DNA of 44,883 nucleotides, taken from assembly GCA_030395855.1 (NCBI GenBank), contig GCA_030395855.1_4325.1. One strand, 5' to 3'. Numbering within the stretch: the stretch's first letter is position 1; each line of letters begins with the position of its first letter. This document shows, piece by piece, positions 1 to 44,883 of the stretch. Source of the stretch: a phage. The translations under genes and the position numbers were made by a program. Below the pieces are notes generated by a model. The model was not told the DNA's origin, made no database searches, and saw only the letters and a list, made by a program, of their open reading frames with translations.

Positions 1-85
1 AGTCAGTAAGCGACCTTGTGGCTATGTGGGATAGTGACCCGTACACTTTTCTCAGCCAGTACCAACAAGAGCCTGTAGCGCTGGG
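1..85. repeat. 85-bp duplication: window positions 1..85 are identical to 44799..44883 (wrap-around of a circular/permuted genome)
   Basis: Direct comparison of first and last 85 nt; implies unit genome of 44798 bp. Confidence 0.9.
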
Positions 86-19722: not shown

Positions 19723-19818
19723 TTGCATACGCGTAACCGATGTAACTCGATGTATACAATCTCATCCGCGGGAAATGATATACGATCTGTTACGCCAATT
19801 TACGCATTAGTTACATTA

Positions 19819-19882
19819 AAATATCTATATATATCAACCTTTTACTCTTATTATTATTATATATATATTACTGTGTATATCA
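19819..19882. repeat. AT-rich repeat block A (AATATCTATATATATCAACCTTTTACT + (TTA)n + TATATAT...TACTGTGTATA)
   Basis: Shares a 27-bp identical core and overall architecture with block B at 37846-37912; lies in a divergent intergenic region. Confidence 0.7.
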
Positions 19883-20183
19883 TGTAACTACTTCTATAGA
19901 GTGTTCCGGTTATAAATTTCTAACATGTACATTTATACAGTATTTAATCACACGCACACCAATGCACCCTCCGCTAGAAATGATATACACGATATACACG
20001 CTGGTTACATTGAGCTATAGCAGGGCTGAGGCTTTAAAAAACGTAACTAGTGGCAATACCTACAGGTAATTACAAGGATTCACGCGTAAACTTGAATCAG
20101 CGATTGGCAAAACCAATTGGACTGGTTACGGTGCCGAATATATAGTTAACCAATCGAAAGCAAACAACCAGAGAGATACAGAA

Positions 20184-26716: not shown

Positions 26717-26817
26717 CTTATTACCTCGATAGCATTTTTTGTTAAAAGTCATCCTGATTTGATGGTAATATTGTACTCAATTAAACGCTACAAGACAATT
26801 TTTATAGGAATTTAGAT

Positions 26818-31631: not shown

Positions 31632-32105
31632 ATGATTTACGTATTTGATATCGATGGAACTATAGCTAATAATGAGCATAGAAGTCACCTCTTGCCATCC
31701 AGCGACCTTCACTTGACTTCAAGTTGGAAGGATTACAATAAAGCCTGTTCTGGAGACTCACCAATAATCCCAATGATAAAAATGATGAATGCTTTAGCTG
31801 AGTCATCTCAAGTTTACATAATGACCTCAAGAAGTGATGAAGTTGAATTGAGAACCCTTGAGTGGCTTCAGGATAATGAGATTGAGTGTGATTCGATATA
31901 CATGAGAAGTAGACATGACAACCGAAAAGATTACAAAATAAAAGAGCAATGGCTTAATGAAATCAGTGGTGGCGATAAAGGCAATGTGGTTATTTTTGAA
32001 GATAACCCAAAAGTAATTAAGCACCTAAGAAGTCGCGGATACACAGTTATGGCTGTATGTGAATATGAAGAACTACCTAAAGATTGCGAATCTCACGGAG
32101 AATGA
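31632..32105 (+). CDS. HAD-superfamily phosphatase (polynucleotide 3-phosphatase-like)
   Basis: N-terminal FDIDGT motif (HAD motif I); 157 aa. Confidence 0.6.
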   Translation: MIYVFDIDGTIANNEHRSHLLPSSDLHLTSSWKDYNKACSGDSPIIPMIKMMNALAESSQVYIMTSRSDEVELRTLEWLQDNEIECDSIYMRSRHDNRKDYKIKEQWLNEISGGDKGNVVIFEDNPKVIKHLRSRGYTVMAVCEYEELPKDCESHGE

Positions 32106-32107
32106 AA

Positions 32108-32662
32108 ATGACTAAATTATTTATCCTTAACGGACCGGCTGGAGTTGGCAAGGACACTATCGCAGATATTATGCTCGAGTTGGGTGTTGTTGATGGGAAA
32201 GTTTCATTCAAGTCACCAATGTTCGATGTAGCCAGGGGGATGCTATCAAAGGGTGAATTTGATTGGTTTATTGAGAACTACAACAACCGAGACGAGAAAG
32301 AAAAGCATCAAGAGATACTTGGCGGTAAAAGCATTCGAGAATTCATGATTTGGATTAGCGAGTCTGTAATGAAGCCAGTCTTTGGTGATGATGTCTTCGG
32401 TAAAAGGCTCGCCCAGTCACTTGGTGATGGTTGCTACATTTGCGCTGACGGTGGATTTACTAGCGAGATTAAGACACTGGTCGACGCTGGTGTTGAGGTC
32501 ACGTTAATTAGATTGCATAGGGAAGGGTACACATTTGATGGCGATAGTCGCTCATACATTCACGGGGTGTGCGCAAGAGAAATTGATGTTCGTGTTGTTG
32601 ATTGTGATATTAATGAAACATCAGCATTGGTAAGGCACGTAATAAATAGCACGAATTTCTAA
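32108..32662 (+). CDS. P-loop kinase, dNMP-kinase-like (paralog 1)
   Basis: Walker A GPAGVGKDT near N-terminus; about 45 percent identical by eye to the ORF at 39543..40160. Confidence 0.6.
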   Translation: MTKLFILNGPAGVGKDTIADIMLELGVVDGKVSFKSPMFDVARGMLSKGEFDWFIENYNNRDEKEKHQEILGGKSIREFMIWISESVMKPVFGDDVFGKRLAQSLGDGCYICADGGFTSEIKTLVDAGVEVTLIRLHREGYTFDGDSRSYIHGVCAREIDVRVVDCDINETSALVRHVINSTNF

Positions 32663-34823: not shown

Positions 34824-36407
34824 TCACCCCAATAGTCTTGGATTAATGTAAACTTTATCACCAATCAGGCATGTATAGTTTTTCTCATCAAGCATTGGCA
34901 GTAAGTGATCTTTAATCTTCGTCATTACTCCCGCCTGGGCCTCGAACGGCTTAACCTTACGCGCTGCCTCGTACAGAGAACGAATACCCACTACACCTTT
35001 GCCGTTCCTTCCTTGCTTAATCAGAATATCAATCAGCTTATTCATCTCTGCATTGTCGCCAGCGTGACCAGCGGCGTTGGCAGATGACAAATAAGTCTTA
35101 CTCAGTTCCTGGAACATAATCACAGCCTCTTGCATGGTATCGAGTTCAATCTCTCTGGACTTCTGAGGGCTACCGCCATTTGGGTTGAACCAGTTACGAA
35201 CAGTGTGAAGGACAGCCGCAATCCTGATGGCTTGCTTATCGAACTTACCCAGAGCGCCGCGCAACATTGTGTGTGAATACTTCCCGCCGTCAGCAAGGTG
35301 AGGTTCCATTTCCTGACGCGCGCGGTTGAGATATTTCATTGCTGAATTACTAACTGTCAACTTAACTTCCTGCTCATTCATTATCTCGTGAACTAAACGG
35401 AAGTAATCAGCCTTCAACCCGGCATCAATTGGTTCATAAGTCGATTCGCCATTTTCATCAACGAATACACGCTCGCCCAGTAATGACTTTTCACGTACAA
35501 GCAGGAAACGCTCAGATACACCGATACCACGCGCGCCAGCGTTCATGATAGCGTTGATTGTCTCATCCTGCGCAATTACAGAGATGCAACCCATAGCGAC
35601 GAAACTCATGTTGTTTTCTGCGTTCGCACGCGCAATGGACACGTTACCAGCATCCCACGCCTTCAGAACAAGCTCGCTGTTAGTTTTCTTAGAGCCGTCA
35701 CCATAGGTCATTCCAAGAAGCGAGTTCACGCTCGTTGCTTCGTCAGAAATTACCGCAAAGTTTCCCTGGCGGTTGTTTATTCTCGCAAGGCCCTCTGGTG
35801 TGGTGTCTGATACGGGGAAAACGATATCGCAAAGTTTCTCGAGCTTTTCCTCAAGCTCATCCTTCTCCTCGAAAAGAGAAGCCATCTCTGACGGGGATTT
35901 TTCCTGCTTCATCTCTTTGGATAATGCAGATAGTTTAGCCATGATCTTTTTGCGCTCACGCTTTCGGACTTCATTCAGTCGCTCAGTCTCAGCAATCATT
36001 GGAGCAATAGATAGCGAGTTAATGGCTGACTTACCAGTCGATGGAGGCTGGCTTGTTACTACGTAAAGCGAGGTTGGTTGTTGAGTTCCATTATATTCCA
36101 CCGTAAAACGGCCTAGCATCGCAGCGGAAATACACCCCAGGAAGTGCATGTAAGCTGAAGACTCTGGAAACTGAACCGAACGGGCGATGTTAGATGAAAG
36201 TTTACCAACAACATCAACATCATTTCCGAGTGAGATTACGGGATACTTGTCGTTAGCTGCATCAATCTCGACCGGAGCCTTCCAGAATGATTGAGACTGG
36301 CGATAGCCATTAGCATTAATAGCGACTCGCAGGGGTGGGAGGTTGTCTGCGGCAGCAATTGCCATAACCTGTTCAACAGATAGCTTATCTTCGTTGAAAT
36401 CAAACAT
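34824..36407 (-). CDS. putative replication NTPase (DUF3987-like, helicase/primase-associated)
   Basis: 527 aa; Walker-A-like PPSTGKSA; RBS GGAGAG; family assignment from memory of motif pattern, not verified. Confidence 0.45.
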   Translation of the reverse strand: MFDFNEDKLSVEQVMAIAAADNLPPLRVAINANGYRQSQSFWKAPVEIDAANDKYPVISLGNDVDVVGKLSSNIARSVQFPESSAYMHFLGCISAAMLGRFTVEYNGTQQPTSLYVVTSQPPSTGKSAINSLSIAPMIAETERLNEVRKRERKKIMAKLSALSKEMKQEKSPSEMASLFEEKDELEEKLEKLCDIVFPVSDTTPEGLARINNRQGNFAVISDEATSVNSLLGMTYGDGSKKTNSELVLKAWDAGNVSIARANAENNMSFVAMGCISVIAQDETINAIMNAGARGIGVSERFLLVREKSLLGERVFVDENGESTYEPIDAGLKADYFRLVHEIMNEQEVKLTVSNSAMKYLNRARQEMEPHLADGGKYSHTMLRGALGKFDKQAIRIAAVLHTVRNWFNPNGGSPQKSREIELDTMQEAVIMFQELSKTYLSSANAAGHAGDNAEMNKLIDILIKQGRNGKGVVGIRSLYEAARKVKPFEAQAGVMTKIKDHLLPMLDEKNYTCLIGDKVYINPRLLG

Positions 36408-37488: not shown

Positions 37489-37515
37489 ATCTATACCCTC
37501 GTTGTTGATGAGCTA

Positions 37516-37559
37516 ACTATATCCTCACTAACTCCTAATGTCTTTAGCAAAAAGTGCTA
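37516..37559 (-). promoter_or_regulatory. conserved promoter/operator-like element copy (minus strand)
   Basis: Minus strand reads tagcactttttgcta, 23-nt spacer, TATAGT. Confidence 0.55.
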
Positions 37560-37845
37560 TTCGTTAGATTTATGGATTGATGCAGATATTGCAATGATTC
37601 ATATGATTATTGCACATACAGCAATATTGCTTCCGATGCAATGATGTTTTTGATTGTTGCGAAAAGTGAAATGAAGTGGGGAGTGAGTGAATGAAAGATT
37701 GATGGACTACCATACAAGTTGATTTTTACCAATCTATGGGAGCCTCACGGATATACGCGTATCCTCCGTATACTCATTGTCGTCACAAAAGTTAGTGACC
37801 ACTAACCTACGTTTTTACGCGATATATACACACGATATACAATAT

Positions 37846-37912
37846 AATATCTATATATATCAACCTTTTACTTTATTATTATTATTATTATTATATATAT
37901 GTATACTGTGTA
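37846..37912. repeat. AT-rich repeat block B (same core as block A, with longer (TTA)n tract)
   Basis: AATATCTATATATATCAACCTTTTACT + (TTA)5-6 + TATATAT + TACTGTGTATA; second divergent intergenic region. Confidence 0.7.
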
Positions 37913-38189
37913 TACCGGCAATTGGTGAGATTATTGATATGTTCCGCGCAGATATTCTGACACCTGTCAGAAATGGATGGCATTGTAGGAATAAAAGGCA
38001 CATATATAGGGAATGGCTTCAAAAATCTGTACACATCGGATACGGCACATTTACAACCAGCAATGGAGGGGCCTCTGGAGGCAAAAAGCGTATCCATGAT
38101 AAAATAGACGAAAATATACATTGACCGACACGTAAATAGATGGCAATATAGCAGTCACTGAAACGAAGTAAAACAAACGAGGTATCAAC

Positions 38190-38738
38190 ATGCAGAAAGT
38201 AACACTAGGTGAAGTTATCCGTGAGATGGTGCGCAACGCGATGGTGTCCGAGAGTGGTGAGTTTAAAGTTCCGGTTAGCCAGATATTCAAACTGGTTCGC
38301 GGCAAGGAATACCCTGAAATGGTGTATGACGAAGAGACTAGTGAGATCCTCAACCTGGCAGATAGGGCGATACCGGAACTAAAGAACTCATACATCTATA
38401 ACACAGTGTCGAGAATGACAGAGCTTCGCGATGCTAATAAGCGAGCGAGATATAAGTTCATCTGGATTGATGATGACGGAGAGCAAACAAGGCCCGGTAG
38501 CTTCGATGGTGATGGCGCTGATAAATACCTGGTCATATACATTGAGAACGGCGCGCACTGGACTGGGAGTCGCGAAAAGAAAAAGCAGGAAGCGGAGAAA
38601 GAGGCGGCTATCATTGAAAAGTTCAAGTCTAGACTGCTCAAGCTGTCACCAAGTGTTGCTGGCTTGGAAGGTGAAGAACTTAAGGGCGCTGTTACAATGA
38701 TTAATGCTTATCAGGAAATGATTAAGGAGACTAAGTAG
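38190..38738 (+). CDS. hypothetical protein (182 aa), first gene of second rightward operon
   Basis: RBS ACGAGG before ATG 38190. Confidence 0.55.
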   Translation: MQKVTLGEVIREMVRNAMVSESGEFKVPVSQIFKLVRGKEYPEMVYDEETSEILNLADRAIPELKNSYIYNTVSRMTELRDANKRARYKFIWIDDDGEQTRPGSFDGDGADKYLVIYIENGAHWTGSREKKKQEAEKEAAIIEKFKSRLLKLSPSVAGLEGEELKGAVTMINAYQEMIKETK

Positions 38739-39542: not shown

Positions 39543-40160
39543 ATGGCTAAAATCATCATTCTCAACGGTCCGGCTTCGGTTGGCAAAGACACTATCGGTA
39601 ACGCGCTTGCTAAAGATTACAATTGCATCCCGACGAGCTTTAAGATTCCTATGTTTGAGATCGCAGCGTCAATCCTGGGCGCTCGGGCGTTCAGCAAATT
39701 CATCACCGCTTATGATGATCGAGATCAGAAAGAGATGCCTCATGATTTTCTCGGTGGGAAAACCTGCCGTGAGTTCATGATCTGGATTAGCGAGTCGGTG
39801 GTCAAGCCGCTATTTGGCAATCAGCAGTTCGGTAAGCTGACGAGCGAGCGCATCCAGCTTTGTGACGAGGGATTTAGCTTTGTTTGCACTGATGGCGGTT
39901 TTCCTGATGAGGTTATCCGTCTGGTGGAAGACGGCCACTATGTTACCGTTGTGCGCCTATTTATGGATGGCAAGACCTTCGATGGAGATAGTCGTGATTA
40001 TATCCGCATCAAGGAATCGCATTTCCCTGATTATAAGCAATATAACGAGCATGACGTGCATCTGTTGAATGGTGATATTGACGGCGGCGTCATGGCAGTG
40101 GTTCGCGCCTGCGGTATCCGTCCTGCAATCGACGAGTGGGCCGACAATATTCCCTGGTAA
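39543..40160 (+). CDS. P-loop kinase, dNMP-kinase-like (paralog 2)
   Basis: Walker A GPASVGKDT; shared FMIWISESV and TFDGDSR blocks with the ORF at 32108..32662. Confidence 0.6.
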   Translation: MAKIIILNGPASVGKDTIGNALAKDYNCIPTSFKIPMFEIAASILGARAFSKFITAYDDRDQKEMPHDFLGGKTCREFMIWISESVVKPLFGNQQFGKLTSERIQLCDEGFSFVCTDGGFPDEVIRLVEDGHYVTVVRLFMDGKTFDGDSRDYIRIKESHFPDYKQYNEHDVHLLNGDIDGGVMAVVRACGIRPAIDEWADNIPW

Positions 40161-42579: not shown

Positions 42580-42657
42580 GATCTGCTAGCTCAACAGGAA
42601 AGAAGCAACGACCTTCTAAGTCGTAGGTTACTGGTTCGAATCCAGTGCGGATCGCCA
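42580..42657 (+). tRNA. tRNA-Arg (anticodon UCU), with encoded CCA
   Basis: Folded by eye: acceptor stem GATCTGC/GCGGATC (one G-U), anticodon stem ACGAC/GTCGT, loop CTTCTAA (anticodon TCT at 42615-42617), T arm ACTGG-TTCGAAT-CCAGT, discriminator G, CCA. Confidence 0.8.
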
Positions 42658-42934: not shown

Positions 42935-42963
42935 TTGACAATAATATATAGGTGCATTAGTAT
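42935..42963 (+). promoter_or_regulatory. sigma70-like promoter (consensus -35)
   Basis: TTGACA (42935-42940), 17-nt spacer, TAGTAT (42958-42963). Confidence 0.55.
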
Positions 42964-43004: not shown

Positions 43005-43271
43005 ATGATGACATTAAAAGCAGTGTACAAAGACGGCAGCGAGGCAGTATTCGAGGTTAAGAACTACGGATATAGTGCGCCTAACGATAAAATTAGCTAC
43101 CACGTCGCAGATGGTGATGCTGGAGATATTCCTATCAGTGGCGATGTTGTTGTTGTTTACGCAATGAACTCAGCGGGTAGCACTATCGGTAAGTACTACA
43201 ATCACAGTATAGAAAGAGCAAAAGCAGAGCAAACATCAAGCCCCTTAATTGGGGCTTTTTTACGTCTGTAA
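43005..43271 (+). CDS. hypothetical protein (88 aa)
   Basis: RBS GAAGGAGA before ATG 43005; reading frame runs through the downstream terminator hairpin. Confidence 0.5.
   Translation: MMTLKAVYKDGSEAVFEVKNYGYSAPNDKISYHVADGDAGDIPISGDVVVVYAMNSAGSTIGKYYNHSIERAKAEQTSSPLIGAFLRL
43239..43261 (+). terminator. intrinsic terminator
   Basis: Hairpin agcccc-ttaatt-ggggct (same sequence as the 18409 hairpin) followed by T6. Confidence 0.7.
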
Positions 43272-43921: not shown

Positions 43922-44883
43922 ATGTCTTTAGTATGGGAAGAAATGACCATTCAGGAAAAGATGGCCGTCAAAGCGATATCAGAGCATAGCTTCGAGGGCT
44001 TTTTAAGGTGCTGGTTTTCAATAACGCAAGGCGAGCGATACATCCCTAACTGGCATCACAAATATCTATGCAGAATTATTGACGAGATTATCGCAGGAGA
44101 GCGCAAGGATACTATCATTAACATAGCACCAGGCAGCGGAAAGACAGAAATCGCTTCAATCCATTTTCCGGCCTACTCTATGGTTAAGCTGAAGAAGGTG
44201 CGCAACCTTAACATCTCTTTTGCCGACTCATTGGTTAAGCGTAACTCTAAGCGCGTTCGTGATCTTATCAAGTCTCAAGAATTTCAATCACTCTGGCCTT
44301 GCAAATTTGGCACATGTAAAGACGATGAGCTTCAAGTTCTTGATGAGAGTGGTAAGGTTAGATTTGAGTCAATATCGAAAGCGGCTGGTGGTCAGATTAC
44401 CGGTGCTCGCGGTGGGTACATAACCGAAACATACAGCGGAGCCGTTCTGTTGGATGATTTTGACAAACCCGCAGATATGCTATCAGCAGTGTACCGCTCG
44501 AATAATCACGTAATGCTCAAGAACACGATTAGATCACGCCGAGCTAGCTCTGTAAAAGAAAAGGCGACACCAATCATTTCGATACAGCAGCGCTTGCACG
44601 TTAATGACTCCACCTGGTTCATGATGGAAGGTGGTATGGGTATCGACTTTGACTTGATTAAGATACCGGCATTGGTCACTGAGGATTACATCGATTCACT
44701 TCCTGACTGGATTAAAGAGCAGTTTGCAGAGGATGTACTAAGCAGCGAATGCATTGAGCGAGATGGCGTAAAGTACTATAGCTACTTCCCAAAAAAGGAG
44801 TCAGTAAGCGACCTTGTGGCTATGTGGGATAGTGACCCGTACACTTTTCTCAGCCAGTACCAACAAGAGCCTGTAGCGCTGGG
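43922..44883 (+). CDS. terminase large subunit, N-terminal (ATPase) part, truncated by window end; continues at 1..689
   Basis: Walker-A-like APGSGKT; frame is continuous through the 85-bp duplicated junction into ORF 18..689. Confidence 0.8.
   Translation, partial: MSLVWEEMTIQEKMAVKAISEHSFEGFLRCWFSITQGERYIPNWHHKYLCRIIDEIIAGERKDTIINIAPGSGKTEIASIHFPAYSMVKLKKVRNLNISFADSLVKRNSKRVRDLIKSQEFQSLWPCKFGTCKDDELQVLDESGKVRFESISKAAGGQITGARGGYITETYSGAVLLDDFDKPADMLSAVYRSNNHVMLKNTIRSRRASSVKEKATPIISIQQRLHVNDSTWFMMEGGMGIDFDLIKIPALVTEDYIDSLPDWIKEQFAEDVLSSECIERDGVKYYSYFPKKESVSDLVAMWDSDPYTFLSQYQQEPVAL

What the first reader, a model, noticed from the sequence alone, without database searches (positions are those of the whole stretch)
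37489..38189. AT-rich repeat block B at the second divergent strand-switch region, with expanded (TTA)n
This is the second copy of the block at 37846-37912, with the same 27-bp core but a longer TTA tract (5-6 units versus 4) and nearby GATATA(TA)CAC repeats (37819-37840). Upstream (37560-37700) are several short palindromes of the type ATTGCAAT / GCAATATTGC. The different triplet count between copies suggests slippage and would change the spacing of any promoter that spans it. Like block A, it sits exactly where transcription diverges.
Basis: seen in the sequence. Interest (0 to 1): 0.6.

Follow-up and report, generated by a model that had tools for sequence, protein, structure and literature searches.

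The report
Paired AT-rich unwinding blocks, T1-like phage
The block is real, non-coding and one of two ancient copies of the most easily melted DNA in this T1-like phage genome, flanked by short phage-specific repeats; it looks more like a replication-origin or early-control module than a slippage-tuned promoter, and T1-like phages have no mapped origin.

Summary
The window is a complete T1-like coliphage genome (Drexlerviridae, Braunvirinae). The repeat is confirmed. A 27-nt core (37846-37872) is identical to 19820-19846, and the two regions are 80% identical over 100 aligned columns. The TTA tract has 7 units in B and 4 in A, not 5-6 versus 4.

The 115-aa ORF is frameshifted in relatives, so the gap is non-coding.

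Both gaps are paralogous over about 420 nt. Each carries short phased repeats, a core holding a perfect IHF consensus, a (TTA)n(TA)n tract, inverted repeats, a second repeat cluster and, about 250 nt downstream, a sigma-70 promoter.

The two blocks are the two least stable 50-nt windows in four genomes tested (this phage, EC3a, T1, Opt-79). TLS shows the same layout by inspection, with its own repeat sequence.

TTA number is stable within lineages (5 in 16 of 18 A copies, 7 in most B copies). It changes through single-T indels, so slippage is not supported.

Promoter candidates inside the block score at background level, and there is no RNA-structure signal.

Best reading (about 0.35): an origin-like unwinding element with iterons. 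Main rival (about 0.3): an early regulatory or promoter hub.

The upstream palindromes lie in the probable pac/genome-end region.

The parts
37516..37560 (-). Leftward promoter module of the T1-like 21-nt direct-repeat (DR) type. The DR ATAGCACTTTTTGCTAAAG is the reverse complement of 37542-37560, and the TATAGT -10-like hexamer is the reverse complement of 37516-37521. It drives the 37488-to-34485 operon.
   Evidence: DR family described for TLS, T1 and Rtp in PMC11447400
37563..37730 (.). TGAT(T/G)-rich repeats and short palindromes (AGATTTAT, ATTGCAAT, GCAATATTGC, TGCAATGAT x2, GATTGTTGC). Probable pac/genome-end region, separate from block B.
   Evidence: Only 10-16% variable columns among 4 relatives. 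GenBank records open here: Rtp at about 37620, IMM-001 at about 37617, ESCO41 at about 37580, EC3a at about 37745, and SU57 (PhageTerm end) at about 37728. The starts of the T1 and TLS records carry the same TGATTG-type repeats. TLS pac was assigned to AGATTT.
37748..37763 (.). GGATATACGCGTATCC, containing the perfect palindrome ATACGCGTAT (37753-37762). An outlying copy of the GATATAC/TACGCG repeat units.
37811..37842 (+). Upstream cluster of short repeats next to the core: TACG-TTTTTACGCG, GATATATACACAC and GATATACAA. It corresponds to the 10-nt-phased TTACGC repeats of copy A.
37846..37872 (+). 27-nt core identical to 19820-19846. It contains a perfect IHF core consensus WATCAANNNNTTR (TATCAACCTTTTA, 37858-37870) preceded by an A/T-rich stretch.
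   Evidence: the consensus has only 4 matches in the genome on both strands, and 2 of them are in the two blocks
37873..37900 (+). (TTA)7 followed by a (TA)n run. Together with the core this is the least stable duplex in the genome (50-nt dG -45.6 kcal/mol against a mean of -67.8, sd 4.2).
37901..37915 (-). GTATACTGTGTATAC, an inverted copy of the GTATACAC/GATATACAC repeat unit that closes the AT tract. Copy A has ACTGTGTATATC, the reverse complement of GATATACACAGT.
37940..37971 (.). Conserved downstream motifs: TGTTCCG (shared with copy A at 19902-19908) and the 16-nt palindrome TCTGACACCTGTCAGA (37956-37971). In metagenome contig L025 both arms of the palindrome are changed and the symmetry is kept (CCTACA..TGTAGG).
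38029..38055 (+). Downstream repeat cluster GTACACATCGGATACGGCACATTTACA. It aligns with the tandem GATATACAC x2 + GGTTACA of copy A (19982-20010).
38121..38149 (+). Proximal sigma-70-type promoter for the 38190 operon: TTGACC, 17 nt, CAATAT, with TGG (extended -10) before it. The RBS ACGAGGT is at 38177-38183.
   Evidence: positional equivalent of TLS promoter P01
19735..19925 (+). Copy A of the module. From left to right: GTAAC/GTATAC repeats, GATATAC, TTACGC x2, GTTACA, the core (19820-19846), (TTA)4(TA)n, and inverted GTGTATATC/ATGTAAC. Almost invariant in 16 diverse sequences.
19982..20010 (+). Copy A downstream repeat cluster: GATATACAC x2 in tandem, then GCTGGTTACA.
34824..36407 (-). DUF3987 (SF6, MCM-like) helicase gene in the leftward operon leaving gap B. 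It is a candidate trans-acting partner, by inference only.
   Evidence: DUF3987 proteins are proposed replicative helicases with a C-terminal winged helix (PMC4889955), and helicase activity has been shown for one member (PMC11724360)

Best explanation
Block B is the core of a DNA-level nucleoprotein module that occurs twice in the genome (copy A around 19735-20010, copy B around 37811-38055). Each copy has a 50-60-nt tract of almost pure A/T, made of an IHF-type bend site plus (TTA)n(TA)n, and this tract is the easiest DNA in the genome to melt. The tract is bracketed by clusters of short 6-9-nt repeats of the TACRC / GATATACAC type. The upstream repeats are direct and phased at 9-10 nt, those just downstream are inverted, and a second cluster lies about 150 nt further on. 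I propose that it works as an origin-type element. A phage-encoded sequence-specific protein would occupy the repeats. IHF would bend the DNA in this lineage. The AT tract would open as a DNA-unwinding element so that the phage replicative helicase (DUF3987, encoded beside gap B) and the T7-type primase can load. The sigma-70 promoter about 250 nt downstream could supply transcriptional activation. Shown here: the repeat, its non-coding nature, its extreme instability, the enrichment of the flanking repeats, the IHF consensus, and its conservation at both loci in genomes from four Drexlerviridae subfamilies. Inferred: protein binding, melting and origin activity. On this view the TTA tract matters as melt-prone spacer DNA of roughly fixed length within each copy. 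It is not a variable switch.
For: (1) The two blocks are the two least stable 50-nt windows of the genome (z = 5.2 and 5.1; next best 3.5). The same holds at the equivalent loci in EC3a, T1 and Opt-79. TLS shows the same blocks by inspection. The property is kept even where the sequence has diverged. (2) Flanking repeats are strongly enriched: GATATAC 6 of 11 genomic sites, TACGCGT 5 of 7, GTGTATA 5 of 10, all in 1.7% of the genome. They are phased at 9-10 nt and inverted across the AT tract. (3) The tandem downstream 9-mers differ by lineage but keep the same place and period: GATATACAC here, GATTAACAC x3 in T1, GTGAACA in TLS. This is what a co-evolving phage-encoded binding protein would produce. 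(4) A perfect IHF core consensus sits directly beside the AT tract in both copies. (5) About 190 nt of copy A are almost invariant in 16 sequences whose leftward neighbour genes are unrelated. (6) Promoter candidates inside the block are at background level, the IHF core overlaps the putative -35, and consensus sigma-70 promoters lie about 250 nt downstream. (7) The motifs are absent from the third early divergent gap, 26753-26817, so they are not general early-promoter operators. (8) No origin is known for T1-like phages. A DUF3987 helicase gene lies in the operon leaving gap B.
Against: There is no experimental or coverage evidence for initiation here. Two copies, each at a fixed distance of about 250 nt upstream of a rightward early promoter and paralogous right through that promoter, fit an expression-linked module equally well. 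A -35-like TTTACT/TTTAGA/CTTAGA followed 16-18 nt later by a TATAnT-like hexamer can be read in most lineages, so a weak-to-moderate promoter cannot be excluded. The repeats are shorter than classic iterons. The IHF consensus is perfect only in A-type and Veterinaerplatzvirus-like B copies, and it is degenerate in Rtp, e4/1c, Opt-79 and TLS. No similar sequence was found in plasmids.
Confidence: 0.35

Rival explanations
1. The module is an early-transcription control hub. The AT block would carry a distal sigma-70 promoter (TTTACT, 16-18 nt, TATATT/TATTAT, start near ACTGTGTAT) or an upstream activating or silencing region. The flanking repeats would be operators for a phage regulator that loops or shuts off the early rightward and leftward operons. 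IHF would act as an architectural factor, as at the phage Mu early region.
For: Both copies sit in divergent gaps, have the same orientation relative to the rightward operon, and are paralogous through the proximal promoter. The distance from block to proximal promoter is conserved at roughly 250 nt. A -35-like TTTA(C/G)N and a -10-like hexamer at 16-18 nt can be found in most lineages, for example e4/1c CTTAGA-17-TATAGT and Opt-79 A TTTAGA-17-TATATT. phiSITE-predicted divergent promoters are annotated on block A of EC3a. Upstream and downstream repeat clusters about 200 nt apart could support a repression loop.
Against: PWM scores are at background level (ranks 34 and 122), and any AT-rich tract yields -10-like hexamers. 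The IHF core overlaps the putative -35. The block contains far more pure A/T than a promoter needs, and it is the instability rather than the hexamers that is conserved across subfamilies. The third early gap lacks the motifs. The roughly 290-nt leader shows no RNA-structure signal.
Confidence: 0.3
2. The TTA tract is a slippage-prone contingency repeat that tunes the spacing of a promoter.
For: The tract length differs between copies A (4) and B (7) and between genera (4 to 8). The tract lies between a -35-like and a -10-like hexamer.
Against: Within lineages the number is fixed: 5 in 16 of 18 A copies and 7 in most B copies. The 58 phage records with block B have matched spans of 169-172 nt for the 171-nt query. 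The observed changes are single-T indels at the TTA/TA junction or a point mutation, not gains or losses of whole units. -10-like hexamers recur every 3 nt, so unit changes would be buffered.
Confidence: 0.05
3. Block B is part of the packaging (pac) recognition site. The repeats would bind small terminase and IHF would assist, as at lambda cosB or P1 pac.
For: Genome records and a PhageTerm end map 60-300 nt to the left of the block. Clusters of short repeats plus an IHF site are also typical of pac/cos sites (general knowledge).
Against: An equally conserved copy A lies about 18 kb away in mid-genome, where no packaging start is known. The terminus-associated TGATTG-type repeats (37563-37730) form a separate conserved module that copy A lacks.
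Confidence: 0.07
4. The gap encodes a product: either the 115-aa ORF or another small protein, or a structured leader or small RNA.
For: An ORF of 115 aa spans the block. A 16-nt palindrome at 37956-37971 keeps its symmetry through changes on both arms in L025.
Against: The ORF is broken in relatives and shows no codon-position bias. There are several 1-nt indels across the gap. Rfam gave only one sub-threshold match, 19.3 bits against a gathering score of 37. The fold z-score is +0.64 and the covariation term is -1.1 kcal/mol.
Confidence: 0.05

Closest known systems
Iteron-type origins with an AT-rich unwinding element and an IHF site (pSC101 ori, R6K gamma ori, E. coli oriC); from general knowledge
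   Same: A highly melt-prone AT tract next to clusters of short phased repeats, an IHF consensus beside the AT tract, and a promoter downstream.
   Different: The repeats here are only 6-9 nt rather than 17-22. There are two full copies per genome. No initiator has been identified and no replication data exist.
Satellite phage P4 ori plus crr, and SaPI origins (short iterons in two sets or regions, bound by the helicase's C-terminal domain); from general knowledge
   Same: Short repeats in both orientations, two separated cis regions (P4) or two sets flanking an AT-rich region (SaPI), and a phage-encoded helicase with a C-terminal DNA-binding domain as a plausible binder.
   Different: The helicase here belongs to the DUF3987/SF6 family. 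Binding has not been tested. The two regions are 18 kb apart and each has its own AT tract.
Transcription-coupled phage origins (T7 primary and secondary origins; T4 oriF/oriG); from general knowledge
   Same: An AT-rich region associated with nearby promoters, and several origins per genome.
   Different: In those origins the AT-rich element lies just downstream of the priming promoter. Here the good promoter lies about 250 nt downstream and points away from the block.
Phage Mu early operator region (many short repressor sites in both orientations with an IHF site between divergent promoters); from general knowledge
   Same: A divergent gap, short repeats in both orientations, and an IHF consensus.
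   Different: This is a lytic phage with no lysogeny switch. Its AT tract is extreme, and the element is duplicated.
21-nt direct repeats of T1-like phages (aaATAGCACnnnTTGnTAAAA; PMC11447400)
   Same: A repeated non-coding element of the same phage family. One copy lies inside the reported interval (37542-37560, minus strand).
   Different: The block has no ATAGCAC motif, occurs only twice, and is not positioned about 76 nt upstream of a start codon.

Membership tests
Iteron/DUE replication origin | AT-rich DNA-unwinding element of unusually low duplex stability | tested here: met
   The blocks are the two least stable 50-nt windows in this genome (z = 5.2 and 5.1). The same is true in EC3a, T1 and Opt-79.
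Iteron/DUE replication origin | Cluster of repeated initiator-binding sites next to the DUE | tested here: inconclusive
   Short repeats are enriched (p about 1e-8), phased at 9-10 nt and lineage-specific. They are shorter than classic iterons and no binder is known.
Iteron/DUE replication origin | Replication starts there, or the element supports replication in cis | not testable with these tools
   This needs marker-frequency analysis, 2D gels or a plasmid origin assay. The literature found says the origin of T1-like phages is unknown.
IHF binding site | Core consensus WATCAANNNNTTR with an A/T-rich 5' flank | tested here: met
   TATCAACCTTTTA occurs at 19832 and 37858. The genome has only 4 matches on both strands. 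Other genera have 1-2 mismatches. Binding itself was not tested.
Sigma-70 promoter | -35 and -10 hexamers at 16-18 nt that score above genomic background | tested here: inconclusive
   TTTACT-17-TATATT (A) and TTTACT-16-TATTAT (B) match 9 of 12 positions. They rank 34th and 122nd genome-wide.
Sigma-70 promoter | Mapped transcription start | not testable with these tools
   No transcriptome of a T1-like phage was found.
Phase-variable simple-sequence repeat (contingency locus) | Unit-number polymorphism among close relatives | tested here: not met
   TTA number is fixed within lineages, and changes are single-nucleotide indels or point mutations.
T1-like 21-nt DR promoter element | ATAGCAC-N3-TTGnTAAA about 20 nt upstream of a TATAGT-like hexamer | tested here: not met
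   The block lacks the motif. A true DR copy is at 37542-37560 on the minus strand, elsewhere in the interval.
pac site | Coincides with the packaging-series start or genome terminus | tested here: not met
   Record starts and the PhageTerm end map to 37564-37745, left of the block, and copy A lies in mid-genome. This test is indirect because it relies on where other groups opened their records.
Protein-coding gene | ORF conserved in relatives with a codon-position substitution bias | tested here: not met
   The ORF has frameshifts and stops in 12210I and Sd1, and substitutions fall 17/27/23 by codon position.
Structured RNA | Rfam match, or a stable fold with covariation | tested here: not met
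   Rfam gave only ES003 at 19.3 bits against a gathering score of 37. The fold z-score is +0.64 and the covariation term is -1.1 kcal/mol.

The most novel reading that the evidence does not exclude
The two paralogous modules are the long-unidentified replication origins of T1-like phages. This would be a dual-origin arrangement conserved across Drexlerviridae, in which lineage-specific short iterons recruit the phage MCM-like (DUF3987) helicase to an extreme AT tract. One origin would sit within a few hundred bases of the packaging start, and therefore within the terminal redundancy.
Probability: 0.3. Interest if true: 0.6.

Novelty: new member of a known kind. Interest (0 to 1): 0.45.

Why it matters
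T1 is one of the classic T phages, yet the papers I could read state that no origin of replication has been found for T1-like phages, and they list the meaning of the intergenic repeats as an open question. This analysis gives two precise, family-conserved candidate cis elements of about 110-250 nt each, with defined repeats, an IHF consensus and a melt-prone tract. They can be tested directly by deletion, marker-frequency sequencing, footprinting and reporter fusions. It also separates three functions that the 700-nt gap mixes together: a leftward DR promoter, a probable pac region, and the AT module with its proximal sigma-70 promoter. That separation is useful for annotating and engineering these common laboratory and industrial contaminant phages. 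If the element proves to be only an early regulatory region, the result is ordinary but still improves annotation.

Tried and rejected
(1) Coding potential. The 115-aa ORF and the antisense ORFs were rejected.

(2) RNA. The Rfam scan gave nothing above threshold. A single-sequence fold and an 8-sequence RNAalifold gave no stability or covariation signal.

(3) DnaA boxes. None of the genome's exact TTWTNCACA matches falls in either gap, which have only 8-of-9 matches (ATATACACA, GTATACACA). I recall, without being able to check, that T1 does not need host dnaA. I did not pursue this.

(4) Plasmid homology. A distant blastn of copy A against PLSDB found no match.

(5) Protein-based retrieval of related loci from IMG/VR returned only 7 loci for each flanking gene, mostly GenBank phages. 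The metagenome core scan was more useful.

(6) Literature. I found no transcriptome, TSS map, origin mapping or IHF-dependence data for T1-like phages. The Rtp genome paper could not be opened.

(7) Strand compositional skew follows transcription direction and gave no origin signal.

(8) The third divergent gap (26753-26817) was checked for the same motifs, and none were found.

Full report
Context. The window is a complete phage genome of about 44.8 kb. Its first and last 85 nt are identical, which is a circular assembly overlap. It belongs to the T1-like phages (Drexlerviridae, Braunvirinae). The closest records are Veterinaerplatzvirus T145P1 (98.5% identity over the gap) and Escherichia phage 2725-N35 (97%). 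The interval 37489-38189 is a 701-nt gap. To its left is a leftward operon: small ORFs, a DUF3987 helicase at 34824-36407, and a 111-aa ORF. To its right is a rightward operon that starts at 38190 with DUF7174, continues through small ORFs and a dNMP kinase, and runs on towards terminase. "Block A" lies in the gap between a lipoprotein gene (leftward) and the RecE-like exonuclease / Erf / SSB operon (rightward).

Check of the observation. The repeat is real.
- The 27-nt core at 37846-37872 equals 19820-19846. The wider similarity is 80% over 100 aligned columns, E = 2e-18.
- The GATATA(TA)CAC repeats and the upstream palindromes are present.
- GATATAC/GTATATC is strongly concentrated in the two gaps: 6 of 11 genomic sites in 1.7% of the genome.

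Not translated, not a structured RNA.
- The 115-aa ORF that spans the block is interrupted by frameshifts and stops in 12210I and Sd1. Its substitutions show no codon-position bias, and 1-nt indels are scattered across the gap.
- Rfam gives nothing above threshold.
- The 290-nt stretch from the block to the gene folds no better than shuffled sequence (z = +0.64).
- An 8-sequence consensus fold has almost no covariation support.

Anatomy. The interval contains four separate conserved modules.
- (i) A leftward promoter module of the known T1-like 21-nt direct-repeat type (37516-37560, minus strand).
- (ii) A TGAT(T/G)-rich repeat and palindrome region (37563-37730). Many GenBank records of relatives were opened within or just beyond it (Rtp, IMM-001, ESCO41, EC3a, T1, TLS). 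The PhageTerm-supported end of SU57 also falls here.
- (iii) Block B with its flanking repeats (37811-37915), followed by conserved downstream motifs and a second repeat cluster (38029-38055).
- (iv) A proximal sigma-70 promoter, TTGACC-17-CAATAT with an extended -10 (38121-38149). It is the positional equivalent of TLS promoter P01.

The two gaps are paralogous, and the arrangement is old. Alignment of 17 copies from 10 Braunvirinae shows that gaps A and B are homologous over about 420 nt. The homology runs from the upstream repeats through the AT block and the second repeat cluster to the proximal promoter. In 16 A-type sequences, about 190 nt (19735-19925) are almost invariant, although the genes to the left are unrelated in different phages. 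Three other subfamilies have the same layout at both loci: T1 (Tunavirinae), TLS (Tempevirinae) and Klebsiella phage Opt-79 (Rogunavirinae). They use their own repeat sequences: ATTACGCC x2 and GATTAACAC x3 in T1, and GTGAACA-type repeats in TLS.

Physical property. The two blocks are the two most AT-rich and least stable 50-nt windows of the genome. Their dG values are -45.6 and -46.2 kcal/mol, against a mean of -67.8 (sd 4.2) and a next-best value of -53. The same is true at the equivalent loci in EC3a, T1 and Opt-79 (z = 4.7 to 5.8; next best about 3.2 to 3.6). The instability is conserved even where the sequence is not.

IHF. The shared core contains TATCAACCTTTTA, a perfect match to WATCAANNNNTTR with an A/T-rich 5' flank. 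The genome has only four such matches, and two of them are in the blocks. In other genera the match is imperfect. This rests on sequence only.

The TTA tract.
- A-type copies: 5 units in 16 of 18 natural sequences, 4 in this window, and 6 in IME542.
- Veterinaerplatzvirus-like B copies: 7 units in most, 8 in one metagenome contig, and a CTA point mutation in Sd1.
- Other genera: 4 to 7 units.
- Each within-lineage change corresponds to one T gained or lost at the TTA/TA junction, not to a gained or lost unit.
- All 58 phage records that hold block B cover at least 99% of the 171-nt query with matched spans of 169-172 nt.
- The spacing between the core and the inverted repeat is therefore nearly fixed within each copy, at 23-25 nt in A and 32-33 nt in B. 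Slippage-driven variation is not supported.

Promoter reading. The consensus scan and my own PWM scan find TTTACT-17-TATATT in A and TTTACT-16-TATTAT in B. These rank 34th and 122nd genome-wide, below many sites inside genes. The IHF core overlaps the putative -35. Against that, a -35-like TTTA(C/G)N followed 16-18 nt later by a -10-like hexamer can be read in most lineages. phiSITE-predicted promoters are also annotated on block A of EC3a. A weak or conditional promoter therefore cannot be excluded.

Interpretation. The best-supported reading is a DNA-level nucleoprotein module whose key property is easy melting, bracketed by sites for a phage-specific binding protein. Five things point to an origin-type element (confidence about 0.35):
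- the layout of repeats, IHF consensus, unwinding tract and inverted repeats;
- the lineage-specific change of repeat sequence at constant position;
- the absence of these motifs from the third early gap;
- the lack of any known origin in this phage family;
- the nearby gene for a DUF3987/SF6 helicase, a family reported to carry a C-terminal winged helix.

The main rival is an early regulatory hub or distal promoter (about 0.3). It is favoured by the strict association of both copies with a rightward early promoter about 250 nt away. The two readings are not mutually exclusive, because some phage origins are promoter-coupled. A packaging role for the block itself, a contingency repeat, and an encoded product are all unlikely.

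Novelty. I found no description of these paired blocks in the accessible literature on T1-like phages. That literature does describe the 21-nt DR elements and states that the origin is unknown. The kinds of element under consideration (iteron/DUE origin, early operator region) are well known, so I rate this as a new member of a known kind with moderate interest.

Noticed in passing
window 686, 8539, 25178, 26729, 29225, 32646, 38826, 40161, 40683, 41760 (+); 36915, 37560 (-); weaker copies at 19723 (-), 21348 and 31558 (+): The known T1-like 21-nt direct repeat (ATAGCACnnnTTGCTAAA) contains a dyad, TAGCA-N5-TGCTA. In 9 of the 12 copies matched by a strict pattern, it lies a fixed 20-21 nt upstream of a TATAGT-like hexamer and a conserved CATCGAAACGA leader. 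That places the dyad centre near -42, the geometry of a class II activator site rather than an UP element or 'stoperator'. The TLS paper lists its function as an open question.
   Followed up: partly
window 20103-20146: The proximal promoter region of the exonuclease operon (gap A) carries a different dyad, ATTGG-CAAAA-CCAAT. It sits at the position where DR-type promoters have TAGCA-N5-TGCTA, 23 nt upstream of TATAGT. This suggests a second regulator specificity for this operon. It is conserved in most A-type sequences.
   Followed up: partly
window 37563-37730: A conserved TGAT(T/G)-rich repeat and palindrome region where the GenBank records of Rtp, IMM-001, ESCO41, T1, TLS and SU57 begin. 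It contains AGATTTAT, which resembles the AGATTT pac assignment in TLS. Probable pac site of this phage.
   Followed up: partly
window 37956-37971; L025: A perfect 16-nt palindrome, TCTGACACCTGTCAGA, downstream of block B. In metagenome contig L025 both arms are changed and the symmetry is kept (CCTACAC..TTGTAGG). It overlaps a direct repeat of TGTAGGAAT-like units. This could be a dimeric protein site.
   Followed up: no
window 1-85 and 44799-44883: The 85-nt ends are identical. This is a circular-assembly overlap, not a biological terminal repeat, so the unique genome is about 44,798 bp.
   Followed up: yes
window 32288-32403 and 39720-39835: A 116-nt direct repeat at 72% identity lies inside two ORFs: 32084-32662 (192 aa) and the dNMP-kinase-like 39543-40160. 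The two genes may share a paralogous domain.
   Followed up: no
window 26770-26798 (-) and 42935-42963 (+): Two of the best sigma-70 matches outside coding sequence: TTGTCT-17-TACAAT upstream of the regulator-primase operon (the equivalent of TLS P57), and TTGACA-17-TAGTAT just after a terminator and before the gene at 43005.
   Followed up: no
window 42580-42657: A tRNA-Arg(TCT) gene, as in other T1-like phages.
   Followed up: no
window 37499-37566 against 178-kb Cronobacter, Klebsiella and Enterobacter myophages: A 68-nt stretch at 79% identity (E = 9e-6) between the leftward DR-promoter region and a hypothetical-protein region of large myoviruses (for example GAP161, leN). This may be chance, or a shared promoter-like element.
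   Followed up: no
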